A stretch of 64,000 nt of DNA from a virus. A program made the position numbers and the translations under genes. The DNA is taken from positions 11,143 through 75,142 of IMG/VR virus record IMGVR_UViG_3300045988_037140. One strand, written 5' to 3'. Below the pieces are notes generated by a model. The model was not told the origin of the DNA. It was given only the letters and a program-made list of their open reading frames with translations, and ran no database searches. Positions 7,017 through 7,140 of this stretch are shown piece after piece; within the stretch, counting starts at the first letter, position 1, and the number at the start of each line of letters is the position of its first letter.

Positions 7017-7140
7017 CGGGAGCTAGCTCAATTGGTAGAGCGCGTGTAATAATCCAGGTCTAGTAAATAGACCACGACAGCAGCCACTATGATTTTCTAG
7101 GGACACGAGGTTGTAGGTTCAAATCCTGCGCTCCTGGCCA
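7017..7140 (+). tRNA. tRNA-like gene with a ~49-nt insertion in the anticodon loop (intron-like)
   Basis: Normal acceptor cgggagc/gctcctg, D-arm gctc-aattggta-gagc, T-arm gtagg-ttcaaat-cctgc and CCA. The anticodon stem cgtgt/acacg encloses 56 nt instead of 7. The insert contains the hairpin ggtcta-gtaaa-tagacc and ends ...ttttCTAggg. Confidence 0.45.

What the first reader, a model, noticed from the sequence alone, without database searches (positions are those of the whole stretch)
7017..7140. tRNA gene with a ~49-nt insertion in the anticodon loop
Acceptor, D-arm, T-arm and CCA are canonical, but the anticodon stem cgtgt/acacg encloses 56 nt. The insert has its own hairpin (ggtcta-gtaaa-tagacc) and its 3' boundary reads ...ttttCTAggg, so a UAG/CUA-containing loop could be generated by excision. 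The insert is too short for a group I intron and resembles an archaeal/eukaryal-type or novel small tRNA intron. Alternatively this is a disabled tRNA.
Basis: seen in the sequence. Interest (0 to 1): 0.6.

Follow-up and report, generated by a model that had tools for sequence, protein, structure and literature searches.

The report
tRNA carrying a Y-RNA-type protein handle
The interrupted tRNA gene is real, but its 48-base insert is one of seven copies of a conserved RNA module that, in this phage and its many gut and rumen relatives, marks small RNAs encoded beside a Ro60-like protein gene, so it looks like a tRNA fused to a Y-RNA-type protein-binding handle rather than a classical intron.

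Summary
Window 7017-7140 (+) scores as a tRNA (Rfam 46.5 bits, cut-off 29) with 55 nt between the anticodon-stem halves, which means a 48-nt insert. The insert is kept in all orthologues found.

The insert is not an archaeal or eukaryal-type intron, a group I intron or any known ribozyme.

Its core is a covarying hairpin followed by AGACC-ACG-ACAGCA. This core is one of seven same-strand copies of AGAC-N4/5-ACAGCA in the tRNA array (0.2 expected by chance). The other six copies form terminal stems around:
- a YrlA-like tRNA mimic
- a circularly permuted tRNA-Tyr
- a whole tRNA-Asn
- three other payloads (a lone T arm, a 47-nt RNA and a 125-nt RNA of unknown kind)

A gene in the window (14917-16449) is predicted to fold like Ro60/TROVE. 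In about 25 unrelated IMG/VR loci, tRNAs with the same insert lie 0.1-1.3 kb from its homologue, on the same strand.

Best reading (about 0.55): a tRNA/Y-RNA chimera that is bound by the phage Ro60-like protein.

Main rival (about 0.25): the module is removed, and a nick-sealing RNA ligase rebuilds a working tRNA.

No RNA or binding data exist. Novelty: a new variant of a known kind (Y RNA / YrlA).

The parts
7017..7140 (+). tRNA-type gene with an internal insert (class I body; encoded CCA at 7138-7140)
   Evidence: Rfam RF00005 at 46.5 bits against a gathering score of 29. ARAGORN -i finds it. Sequence read. Orthologues in L001-L003, L006-L009, L011-L018.
7017..7047 (+). 5' part: acceptor 5' strand 7017-7023, D arm 7026-7041, G26 at 7042, anticodon-stem 5' strand CGTGT 7043-7047
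7048..7095 (+). 48-nt insert. The junction is ambiguous by one T, so 7047-7094 is equivalent. Parts: AU-rich leader 7048-7056, hairpin, linker, ACAGCA, tail 7083-7095.
   Evidence: The family of 70 distinct inserts is 39-62 nt long.
7057..7073 (+). Module hairpin GGTCTA / GTAAA / TAGACC
   Evidence: Covariation in relatives: 7 of 7 pairs with changes on both sides.
7069..7082 (+). Conserved motif AGACC-ACG-ACAGCA: the helix strand plus the single-stranded ACAGCA
   Evidence: One of 7 plus-strand copies of AGAC-N3-6-ACAGCA in the window; 0.2 expected, none on the minus strand. In the neighbouring copy at 7840 the same motif aligns to the 5' Ro-binding region of Rfam YrlA.
7096..7140 (+). 3' part: anticodon-like loop 7096-7102 (UCUAGGG, with C at position 33), stem 3' strand ACACG 7103-7107, variable loop 7108-7112, T arm 7113-7129, acceptor 3' strand 7130-7136, G73, CCA
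   Evidence: Removing the insert gives 'Leu(UAG)' or, with a 4-bp stem, 'Pro(AGG)'. L009 has one more G and then a canonical CUAGGGG loop.
1233..1325 (+). Module copy 1: terminal stem AAGACACAG/CTGTGTCTT enclosing ACAGCAA and a T-arm-like hairpin
2516..2636 (+). Module copy 2: leader-trailer stem GTAAGACGCA/TGCGTCTTGT plus ACAGCAA, enclosing the whole tRNA-Asn(GTT) at 2549-2622
3503..3561 (+). Module copy 3: small stem-loop RNA, AGACCC/GGGTCT plus ACAGCAA, with no tRNA-like part
5958..6100 (+). Module copy 4: stem AAGACCTAT/GTGGGTCTT plus ACAGCAA, with a 125-nt payload of unknown kind. Homologues at L017 8022-8165 and L013 8417-8561.
   Evidence: The stem appears in the centroid structure only.
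7831..7938 (+). Module copy 6: YrlA-like Y RNA. Terminal stem AAGACGTAT/ATGCGTCTT, ACAGCAA, then V hairpin, T arm, closed acceptor-like stem and D arm.
   Evidence: Rfam RF02553 YrlA at 24.4 bits, E 0.0039 over 331 nt, below the gathering score of 69. Fold z = -3.2. Similar sub-threshold hits of 32-35 bits in L043 and L047.
14768..14901 (+). Module copy 7: circularly permuted tRNA-Tyr(GTA) inside the stem AGACCTT/AAGGTCT. The 3' half (anticodon loop CUGUAAA, long variable arm, T arm, acceptor 3' strand, CCA) comes before the 5' half (acceptor 5' strand, D arm, ACGGA). It lies directly upstream of the Ro60-like gene.
   Evidence: Re-joined in normal order it is called tRNA-Tyr(gta) by ARAGORN, and 62-64 of its 85 positions (73-75%) match the insert-type Tyr genes of L023, L024 and L026.
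14917..16449 (+). Ro60-like protein gene (Pfam DUF2828 + DUF7788, weak vWA; phrog_850 'RNA-binding protein'). This is the proposed binding partner of the module, by inference. The true start is probably about 15 codons downstream.
   Evidence: AlphaFold model with pLDDT 77.5. The top eight Foldseek PDB matches are all Ro60/TROVE proteins, E 1e-8 to 1e-5, over the full length. Linkage to insert-type tRNAs in other phages.
23551..24819 (+). RNA ligase, distantly DRB0094/Rnl5-like. Context only; relevant to the rival 'excision and nick sealing' reading.
   Evidence: Pfam PF09414 and phrog_968. TIGR02306 at E 5.6e-10, below its cut-off.

Best explanation
Window 7017-7140 encodes a tRNA/Y-RNA chimera. 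It is a complete class I tRNA body whose anticodon arm carries, on its 5' side, a 48-nt copy of a module specific to this phage clade.

The module is a helix with a GUCU/AGAC core, followed by 2-4 nt, followed by single-stranded ACAGCA(A/U). The same module forms the terminal stem of six neighbouring small RNAs. In those RNAs the partner strand lies downstream, so the payload sits inside the stem. The payloads include a YrlA-like tRNA mimic, a permuted tRNA-Tyr and a whole tRNA-Asn. In the finding the partner strand lies upstream, so the module is a closed hairpin and the tRNA is attached through two AU-rich linkers. It is the same architecture turned inside out.

Proposed mechanism. Shown: the repeated module, its covariation, its linkage to the gene, and the Ro60-like predicted fold of the protein. 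Inferred: binding and function.
1. The module is the binding site for the phage Ro60-like protein (14917-16449). It plays the role that the GNCGAA-containing stem plays in bacterial YrlA.
2. The resulting RNA-protein particle displays a tRNA body.
3. By analogy with Y RNAs, which act as 'gates, tethers and tRNA mimics', it would tether Ro to tRNA-binding factors or exonucleases, or act as a decoy for tRNA-targeting host nucleases, within the phage's RNA-repair island.

On this reading the RNA is not a classical intron-containing pre-tRNA. Whether the module is ever removed is open.
For: 1. Repeated module. There are seven plus-strand copies of AGAC-N4/5-ACAGCA between 1234 and 14782, none on the minus strand and none elsewhere in 64 kb; 0.2 are expected.

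2. Terminal stems. Six copies have 6-10 bp downstream partner strands, and these fold as terminal stems. In L013, L017, L043 and L047 the same AAGACnnnn/nnnnGUCUU stems recur with fully compensated variable positions.

3. YrlA resemblance. Copy 7831-7938 matches Rfam YrlA (24.4 bits, local E 0.0039), with ACAGCAA aligned to the 5' Ro-binding region and the order V hairpin, T arm, acceptor-like stem, D arm. L043 and L047 give 32-35 bits.

4. Protein fold. The model of the 14917-16449 protein matches only Ro60/TROVE structures at the top of the list, including phage phiLo Ro60.

5. Linkage. In IMG/VR loci fetched only by the DNA pattern ACAGCAAT..GGTTCRANTCC, insert-type tRNAs lie 129-1337 nt from a homologue of that gene, always on the same strand. 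The homologue is present in 25 of 36 validated loci, against 17 of 84 other pattern hits. ACAGCAA occurs at 0.92 per kb on the sense strand near the gene and 0.042 per kb on the antisense strand.

6. Topological isomers. The permuted Tyr at 14768-14901 re-joins into a tRNA-Tyr that matches the insert-type Tyr genes of other phages at 73-75% of positions.

7. Hairpin covariation.

8. Precedent. YrlA RNAs lie within 4 kb of Ro60 on the same strand and mimic tRNA, in phages too (PMC4201824). Phage phiLo Ro60 binds Y-like RNAs encoded upstream of its gene (PMC12135203).

9. Anticodon-loop variation. Close relatives vary by indels exactly in the anticodon-like loop (UCUAGGG, CUAGGGG, CUUAGGG, UUUUGGG), and only 54 of 70 family members have U33. 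This does not look like strict selection for decoding.

10. Redundancy. The insert-bearing genes duplicate anticodons already supplied by uninterrupted genes: Pro and Tyr in the window, Asn in L043.
Against: - No binding or expression data of any kind.
- In the window the finding lies 7.8 kb from the Ro60-like gene. Close linkage is seen in other phages and could partly reflect shared gene order within one clade.
- The Rfam YrlA matches are well below the gathering score. The motif (ACAGCAA) differs from GNCGAA, and the protein belongs to DUF2828/DUF7788, not to Pfam TROVE.
- Most family members keep a canonical 7-nt anticodon loop with real anticodons (Asn GUU, Thr, Val, Pro, Tyr and others). 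Removing the insert restores a perfect 5-bp stem in all 70 parsed members, although the parser selects for this. After removal the sequences are colinear with uninterrupted tRNAs (89% to a tRNA-Asn, 88% to a tRNA-Pro). These features are what a spliced, decoding tRNA would need.
- The phage also encodes a ligase, a kinase and phosphoesterases that could rejoin exons.
Confidence: 0.55

Rival explanations
1. The insert is a true intervening sequence that is removed to give a working tRNA, by a route not yet described in bacteria or phages. The module, perhaps with the Ro60-like protein and an exonuclease, marks the insert. The AU-rich linkers are cut or trimmed back to the anticodon stem. The exons stay held together by the 3' strand of the stem, and the resulting nick is sealed by the phage DRB0094/Rnl5-like ligase after end healing by the kinase and phosphoesterases. 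The permuted Tyr and the flanked Asn would be matured by the same machinery.
For: - Removing the insert restores a 5-bp stem and a 7-nt loop. In 47 of 70 members the stem is complete only if the nucleotides just upstream of the loop are used, so the insert sits inside the 5' strand.
- Anticodon loops are canonical for Asn, Ile, Thr, Val, Tyr and others.
- After removal, sequences are colinear with uninterrupted tRNAs.
- CCA is encoded.
- The window encodes an RNA ligase, a P-loop kinase, four metallophosphoesterases, a cREC domain, RlaP and a Thg1-like enzyme.
- Rnl5 enzymes seal nicks in duplex RNA (PMC5397189).
- Junction positions vary and linkers lack consensus, which fits trimming back to a helix.
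Against: - No endonuclease candidate was identified.
- There is no consensus at the junctions.
- The same module occurs in RNAs that cannot become tRNAs: the YrlA-like copy, the T-arm-only copy and the small stem-loops.
- In the window lineage the product would have C33 or a 4-bp stem.
- The anticodons are redundant with uninterrupted genes.
- RNA-repair islands are common in large phages that have no such inserts.
Confidence: 0.25
2. The module is a processing or 'punctuation' signal for the long tRNA-array transcript, for example a site for a host or phage RNase, and has nothing to do with the Ro60-like protein. The copy inside this tRNA would be an accident that inactivates the gene or merely tags it for decay.
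For: - Several copies lie in leaders and trailers of tRNAs and form leader-trailer stems (2516-2636 around tRNA-Asn; 3503 just after tRNA-His).
- Ribozymes are already known to process phage tRNA ends (PMC10879173).
- A twister-like hit lies next to a tRNA in L013.
Against: - Tight same-strand linkage to the Ro60-like gene across diverged phages.
- YrlA-like organisation of one copy.
- The insert-bearing tRNA is conserved, with compensatory changes, over phages whose ATPase is only 63-72% identical.
Confidence: 0.1
3. It is a disabled tRNA gene: a pseudogene created when a repeated element was inserted.
For: - The anticodon loop after removal is abnormal in the window lineage (C33, or a 6-nt loop or 4-bp stem).
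- No uninterrupted orthologue exists for comparison.
- The gene is redundant with tRNA-Pro(TGG) at 5834-5909.
Against: - All arms are intact, and the Rfam score of 46.5 bits falls within the range of the window's other tRNAs (42.5-73.9 bits).
- The gene and its insert are conserved in at least 17 related contigs, with a compensatory acceptor-stem change.
- The hairpin covaries.
- At least 70 distinct members occur in 53 loci.
Confidence: 0.06
4. It is an archaeal/eukaryal-type (bulge-helix-bulge) intron, a group I intron, or a small self-cleaving ribozyme.
For: Only the general resemblance: an insert in the anticodon arm. The phage's healing enzymes would suit ends carrying a 2',3'-cyclic phosphate.
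Against: - No bulge-helix-bulge at suitable positions in the window or in 0 of 70 members.
- The position is not 37/38.
- No EndA or RtcB in the window.
- 48 nt is far too short for a group I intron.
- No Rfam ribozyme or intron family matches 6780-7300 even at E up to 10.
Confidence: 0.03

Closest known systems
Bacterial and phage Y RNAs of the YrlA type (Rfam RF02553; Chen et al. 2014, PMC4201824; phage phiLo Yrl1/2, PMC12135203)
   Same: - Small RNAs encoded near a Ro60-type gene on the same strand, often in several copies.
- A conserved short motif next to a helix, joined to a tRNA-like domain.
- One neighbouring copy (7831-7938) has the YrlA order of elements and a weak match to the Rfam model.
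- Association with RNA-repair genes.
   Different: - The motif is AAGAC-stem plus ACAGCAA, not GNCGAAN0-1G.
- The protein belongs to DUF2828/DUF7788 and is Ro60-like only by predicted fold.
- In the finding the module is a closed hairpin inserted into a normal tRNA with free acceptor ends and CCA, whereas in YrlA a terminal stem replaces the anticodon arm.
- The payloads here include complete anticodon arms with real anticodons, whole tRNAs and permuted tRNAs.
- Binding is not shown.
Archaeal/eukaryal protein-spliced tRNA introns, including non-canonical positions and the split or permuted tRNA genes of Nanoarchaeum and Cyanidioschyzon
   Same: - A short insert in the anticodon arm, sometimes inside the stem.
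- Insert-type, permuted and flanked forms of the same tRNA exist side by side.
- Exons that would form a normal tRNA.
   Different: - No bulge-helix-bulge and no splicing endonuclease.
- The inserts share a conserved sequence and hairpin.
- The host is bacterial (the endolysin has an SLH domain; matches occur in Lachnospiraceae and Clostridia assemblies).
'Enigmatic' tRNA introns of Lak megaphages (Devoto et al. 2019, PMC6784885)
   Same: Phage tRNA genes of gut origin that standard tRNA finders miss because of an insert; no known splicing mechanism.
   Different: Lak inserts are 79-114 nt, sit at 36/37 in the tRNAscan calls of Table S6 and contain a nested tRNA-like element. They lack the hairpin-ACAGCA module. 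The nested type also occurs in relatives of this phage (L022, L037, L042, L043, L047) as a separate class.
Theta (minimal HDV-like) ribozymes next to gut-phage tRNAs (PMC10879173)
   Same: Small structured RNAs attached to phage tRNAs in gut Caudoviricetes. DRB0094-type RNA ligase is enriched in those phages, and a distant relative is encoded here.
   Different: Theta ribozymes lie at tRNA 3' ends and self-cleave. No HDV-like or other ribozyme model matches here, and the architecture is different.

Membership tests
tRNA (Rfam RF00005) | Cloverleaf with conserved D and T loops, scoring at or above the gathering score | tested here: met
   46.5 bits against a gathering score of 29, E 7.7e-9, with the insert modelled as a 55-nt loop.
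tRNA (Rfam RF00005) | 7-nt anticodon loop with U33 and a purine at 37 on a 5-bp stem, after removal of the insert | tested here: inconclusive
   In the window the loop is UCUAGGG (C33) on a 5-bp stem, or CUAGGGA on a 4-bp stem. The L009 variant is canonical. In the family, 54 of 70 members have U33 and 65 of 70 have R37.
Archaeal/eukaryal BHB tRNA intron | Bulge-helix-bulge (3-nt bulges flanking a 4-bp helix) placing both splice sites | tested here: not met
   A script search found no motif at the junctions in the window. None of 70 family members has a strict BHB that gives the predicted excision.
Archaeal/eukaryal BHB tRNA intron | Splicing endonuclease (EndA/Sen) and RtcB- or Trl1-type ligase available | tested here: not met
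   No PF01974 or RtcB among about 58 window proteins. The host genome and the rest of the phage were not available.
Archaeal/eukaryal BHB tRNA intron | Canonical position 37/38 | tested here: not met
   The insert lies 5' of the anticodon: 31/32 in the window, and within stem positions 27-31 in 47 of 70 relatives.
Group I intron in bacterial tRNA | P1-P9 core of 200 nt or more; match to the Rfam Intron_gpI model | tested here: not met
   The insert is 48 nt. No Rfam match up to E 10 in 6780-7300.
Small self-cleaving ribozymes (HDV-like/theta, twister, hammerhead, pistol, hatchet) | Match to the family's covariance model | tested here: not met
   No hit up to E 10. Self-cleavage itself cannot be tested here.
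Y RNA / YrlA (RF02553) | Encoded near a Ro60 orthologue on the same strand | tested here: met
   A gene with a Ro60-like predicted fold lies at 14917-16449 on the same strand, 7.8 kb away. In other phages insert-type tRNAs lie 0.13-1.3 kb from its homologue. The protein is Ro60-like by predicted structure only; Pfam gives DUF2828/DUF7788.
Y RNA / YrlA (RF02553) | Terminal stem formed by the 5' and 3' ends, carrying the GNCGAAN0-1G Ro-binding motif | tested here: not met
   In the finding the helix is a closed hairpin and the motif is ACAGCA. The six neighbouring copies do have terminal stems, but also with ACAGCAA.
Y RNA / YrlA (RF02553) | tRNA-like domain | tested here: met
   A full tRNA body.
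Y RNA / YrlA (RF02553) | Score at or above the Rfam gathering score | tested here: not met
   No YrlA hit on 7017-7140. The neighbouring copy at 7840-7946 scores 24.4 bits, and L043 and L047 copies score 32-35 bits, against a gathering score of 69.
Y RNA / YrlA (RF02553) | Physical binding to the Ro60 protein | not testable with these tools
   Needs gel-shift or immunoprecipitation experiments.
Lak-megaphage nested tRNA-like introns | 79-114 nt insert 3' of the anticodon (36/37 as numbered by tRNAscan in Table S6), containing a T-arm or tRNA-like element | tested here: not met
   Compared with Table S6 of PMC6784885. The insert here has a different size, position and content.

The most novel reading that the evidence does not exclude
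Gut and rumen phages run a protein-dependent tRNA 'unlocking' pathway of their own. tRNAs are stored as locked precursors in three forms: a module inserted in the anticodon stem, circular permutation, or a leader-trailer stem. A shared Ro60-binding module recruits the phage Ro60-like particle and an exonuclease to trim the linkers back to the anticodon stem. An Rnl5-type ligase then seals the nick and releases working tRNAs, for instance when host anticodon nucleases have depleted the pool. This would be a third, bacterial-world route of tRNA splicing, and the first defined substrate for both Ro60/Y-RNA particles and nick-sealing RNA ligases.
Probability: 0.2. Interest if true: 0.92.

Novelty: new variant of a known kind. 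Interest (0 to 1): 0.72.

Why it matters
What Y RNAs and Ro60 do in bacteria and phages is still unclear. Their tRNA-like domains have no known partner.

Here, a large and previously unannotated family links a Ro60-like protein to RNAs that are authentic tRNAs with real anticodon arms, not merely tRNA-like. The family has at least 70 distinct insert-type members in 53 loci, plus many terminal-stem relatives. The tRNAs occur in three interchangeable topologies.

That makes two questions directly testable. What does the tRNA part of a Y RNA do: decoy, tether or stored tRNA? And what are the natural substrates of nick-sealing RNA ligases and phage RNA-repair islands?

There is also a practical consequence. 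Standard tRNA finders and the default Rfam scan miss these genes, so phage tRNA repertoires and 'intergenic' regions are mis-annotated.

Tried and rejected
1. Amber-suppressor or CUA loop: CTA is not conserved among orthologues.

2. Bulge-helix-bulge intron: none found.

3. Group I intron or known ribozymes: no Rfam hit. HDV-like theta architecture was considered after reading PMC10879173 and does not fit, because the insert has no G1/P1 and only about 9 nt lie upstream of the hairpin.

4. A closing helix between the two AU-rich linkers of the insert: present in some subfamilies (AAAG/CUUU and similar) but absent in others, and likely by chance in AU-rich sequence (reading). Dropped.

5. DNA transposon with target-site duplication: direct repeats of the stem's 5' strand occur only in class II (Tyr, Leu) members, not in Ile, Asn or Pro members. 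Dropped.

6. Search for an uninterrupted orthologue: none in IMG/VR with a degenerate exon pattern, and none at 85% identity or better in the held loci.

7. Lak-megaphage introns: a different class.

8. Sequence search of the ligase and of the Ro-like protein against PDB chains: no hits. Structure prediction was needed for the Ro-like protein.

9. Genome-collection scan: mostly chance matches at that pattern's specificity. Seven passed the tRNA parser, several of them in Lachnospiraceae/Clostridia assemblies.

10. Literature searches for phage tRNA introns or interrupted tRNAs: no description of this family in the held library.

11. Amino-acid identity of the window tRNA: unresolved (Pro-like C1-G72, but G73; the anticodon is ambiguous).
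Full report
**1. The observation.**
It has:
- a 7-bp acceptor stem
- a D arm
- a T arm with TTCAAAT
- discriminator G and an encoded CCA
- anticodon-stem halves CGTGT (7043-7047) and ACACG (7103-7107)

The stem halves enclose 55 nt. The default ARAGORN run and the default Rfam scan both miss the gene. With permissive filters the Rfam tRNA model matches at 46.5 bits against a gathering score of 29, and ARAGORN with introns allowed also calls it. The minimum-free-energy fold keeps the cloverleaf and the insert hairpin, but its energy is unremarkable (z = -1.4).

**2. Setting.**
The first 15 kb of the window hold 33 tRNA genes and a tmRNA gene, all on the plus strand. The region has no DNA match among deposited phage genomes. 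A nearby ATPase is about 39% identical to those of Bacillus phages. The endolysin carries an SLH domain, and an anaerobic ribonucleotide reductase is present. Both point to an anaerobic Bacillota host.

Downstream lies an RNA-repair island:
- DUF2828/DUF7788 protein
- MoxR-type ATPase
- cREC domain
- RlaP nucleotidyltransferase
- four metallophosphoesterases
- an RNA ligase distantly related to DRB0094/Rnl5
- a Thg1-like enzyme
- a P-loop kinase
- an SPFH protein
- a PIN-PhoH protein

**3. Conservation.**
Using the ATPase as bait I fetched 51 related IMG/VR loci. The interrupted gene is present in all close relatives. It is also present in lineages whose ATPase is only 63-72% identical. No uninterrupted orthologue was found. 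The acceptor stem shows a compensatory change (C7-G66 against U7-A66). By contrast, the anticodon-like loop differs by indels among close relatives: UCUAGGG, CUAGGGG, CUUAGGG and UUUUGGG. The CTA that suggested a suppressor is not conserved.

**4. A large family of inserts.**
Reading diverged homologues showed that the insert often lies inside the 5' strand of the anticodon stem. Removing it restores a perfect stem and a canonical loop, and the tRNA identities differ: Ile GAU in L021, Asn GUU in L024 and L043, Pro in L013 and L039.

A parser then validated 70 distinct inserts of 39-62 nt in 53 loci. In 47 of them the stem is complete only when the nucleotides just upstream of the loop are used. 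After removal, sequences are colinear with uninterrupted tRNAs (89% to an Asn, 88% to a Pro).

All inserts share the same parts:
- an AU-rich leader
- a 5-9 bp hairpin with a conserved apical part (UCWU / loop / RWGA)
- 1-4 nt of linker
- (A)CNGCA(AU)
- an AU-rich tail

In a model-based alignment, all seven hairpin pairs show changes on both sides (that alignment leans towards the model, but the hand-made tables show the same).

**5. What it is not.**
- No bulge-helix-bulge fits the junctions in the window or in any of the 70 members.
- The position is not 37/38.
- No splicing endonuclease or RtcB is encoded in the window.
- No intron or ribozyme family of Rfam matches, even at E up to 10.
- The 'enigmatic' Lak-megaphage introns are a different class: 79-114 nt with a nested tRNA-like element. 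That class also occurs in some relatives here.

**6. The reframing.**
A tblastn search of window proteins against all viral loci showed homologues of the DUF2828/DUF7788 protein in 69 of 175 loci. These include 42 of the 120 loci fetched only by the DNA pattern. In those loci the insert-type tRNAs lie 129-1337 nt from the gene, always on the same strand, often as clusters of 2-4. ACAGCAA is 22-fold more frequent on the sense strand than on the antisense strand near the gene.

An AlphaFold model of the protein (pLDDT 77.5) matches only Ro60/TROVE structures at the top of a PDB fold search, over the full length, including the Ro60 of Thermus phage phiLo.

Ro60 proteins bind Y RNAs. Bacterial YrlA RNAs are encoded within 4 kb of Ro60 on the same strand and contain a tRNA-like domain (PMC4201824). 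Phage phiLo Ro60 binds two Y-like RNAs encoded upstream of its gene (PMC12135203).

**7. The module in the window.**
AGAC-N4/5-ACAGCA occurs seven times. All copies are on the plus strand and all lie between 1234 and 14782; 0.2 are expected. Six copies have a downstream partner strand of 6-10 bp, giving a terminal stem.

| Copy | Stem coordinates | Payload |
|---|---|---|
| 1 | 1233-1325 | T-arm-like hairpin |
| 2 | 2516-2636 | the whole tRNA-Asn gene |
| 3 | 3503-3561 | small RNA |
| 4 | 5958-6100 | unknown 125-nt payload |
| 6 | 7831-7938 | YrlA-like RNA |
| 7 | 14768-14901 | circularly permuted tRNA-Tyr, immediately upstream of the Ro60-like gene |

For copy 6 the Rfam YrlA model gives 24.4 bits (local E 0.0039, below the gathering score). 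ACAGCAA aligns to the 5' Ro-binding region, followed by V hairpin, T arm, closed acceptor-like stem and D arm. For copy 7, re-joining the halves in normal order gives a sequence that ARAGORN calls tRNA-Tyr(gta). 62-64 of its 85 positions (73-75%) match the insert-type Tyr genes in other phages.

Relatives carry the same kinds of element, with constant AAGAC/GUCUU and fully compensated variable stem positions. They also include permuted tRNAs with complete Ile or Tyr anticodon arms.

The finding is the only window copy whose partner strand lies upstream. Its helix is closed by a loop and the tRNA hangs from the open end. It is the same architecture as the others, circularly permuted.

**8. Interpretation.**
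Shown:
- a real tRNA-type gene
- a conserved, covarying insert
- membership of a repeated module family
- linkage of that family to a gene whose product is predicted to fold like Ro60
- YrlA-like organisation of sister copies

Inferred:
- the module binds the Ro60-like protein
- the particle displays a tRNA body as a tether, gate or decoy, as proposed for YrlA (PMC4201824, PMC7790460)

I give this reading about 0.55.

The main rival (about 0.25) is that the module is removed and the exons are sealed. The exons would remain paired to the 3' strand of the stem as a nicked duplex, and the Rnl5-like ligase would seal the nick. Canonical anticodon arms, colinearity with normal tRNAs and the healing and sealing enzymes all favour this. 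Against it: sister RNAs that can never become tRNAs, redundant anticodons, the abnormal loop in the window lineage, and the lack of any candidate endonuclease.

Lesser rivals are a Ro-independent processing signal (about 0.1), a pseudogene (about 0.06), and a classical intron or ribozyme (about 0.03).

**9. Novelty.**
Y RNAs with tRNA-like domains next to Ro60 are known, also in phages. New here are:
- the motif
- the protein family (Ro60-like by predicted fold, annotated only as DUF2828/DUF7788)
- payloads that are authentic tRNAs with real anticodon arms
- the three topologies (flanked, permuted, inserted)

I found no description of this family in the searchable literature. I rate it a new variant of a known kind. 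There is a 0.2 chance that it hides a new tRNA-splicing or unlocking pathway.

Noticed in passing
window 14768-14901 (+): A circularly permuted tRNA-Tyr(GTA) gene. The 3' half, with encoded CCA, comes before the 5' half; the acceptor is closed by the loop ACCACUAUAU; the whole is enclosed by an AGACCTT/AAGGTCT stem with ACAGCAA. It lies directly upstream of the Ro60-like gene. Permuted tRNA genes are otherwise known from a red alga and a few archaea.
   Followed up: yes
window 2516-2636 (+): An ordinary tRNA-Asn(GTT) gene (2549-2622) enclosed by a 10-bp leader-trailer stem that carries the ACAGCAA motif. The same arrangement surrounds a tRNA-Ile at L047 7633-7750.
   Followed up: partly
window 7831-7938 (+); also L043 11748-11855 and L047 13955-14071: YrlA-like Y RNAs (V hairpin, T arm, closed acceptor-like stem, D arm) with sub-threshold Rfam RF02553 matches of 24-35 bits.
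   Followed up: partly
window 5958-6100 (+); L017 8022-8165; L013 8417-8561: A conserved RNA of about 143 nt with the module stem and a payload of unknown kind (no tRNA features).
   Followed up: no
window 14917-34922 (+): An RNA-repair island: Ro60-like protein, DUF7192, MoxR ATPase, cREC domain, RlaP, four metallophosphoesterases, Rnl5-like RNA ligase, Thg1-like 3'-5' polymerase, P-loop polynucleotide-kinase-like protein, SPFH protein and PIN-PhoH.
   Followed up: partly
window 1335-1425, 8450-8523, 4549-4638, 5709-5782, 14679-14765, 4117-4462: Unusual translation RNAs: a class II tRNA with a CTA (amber-reading) anticodon; a tRNA with a 4-base anticodon call (taaa); A34 tRNAs Ser(AGA) and Cys(ACA); a class II tRNA with a GCA anticodon; and a tmRNA with tag DNNYFDSHMAA. 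No Gly or Trp tRNA was found in the array.
   Followed up: no
L022 13230-13378; L037 12705-12862; L042 15615-15771; L043 7899-8069; L047 16177-16328: tRNA genes whose anticodon loop contains a nested tRNA-like element (62-96 nt). This is the same class as the Lak-megaphage 'enigmatic introns', and these inserts also begin with UA.
   Followed up: partly
L175 6652-6745: A tRNA-like RNA in which the whole anticodon arm is replaced by the hairpin-ACAGCAAU module. The same locus has two further ACAGCAA elements with long-range stems just upstream of the Ro60-like gene.
   Followed up: partly
L013 2562-2619 (+): A twister-P1 ribozyme-like match (54.2 bits against a gathering score of 67.2, E 2e-9) immediately upstream of a tRNA at 2625-2714.
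   Followed up: no
L047 15911-16008 (+): A match to positions 1084-1153 of bacterial 23S rRNA (37.5 bits, E 9e-8) inside a phage tRNA array. This may be a mimic of an rRNA fragment.
   Followed up: no
L179, L217, L230, L248 (genome contigs): Insert-type tRNAs also occur on contigs binned into Lachnospiraceae and Acetatifactor metagenome-assembled genomes. These are probably phage or prophage sequence, and they hint at the host range.
   Followed up: partly
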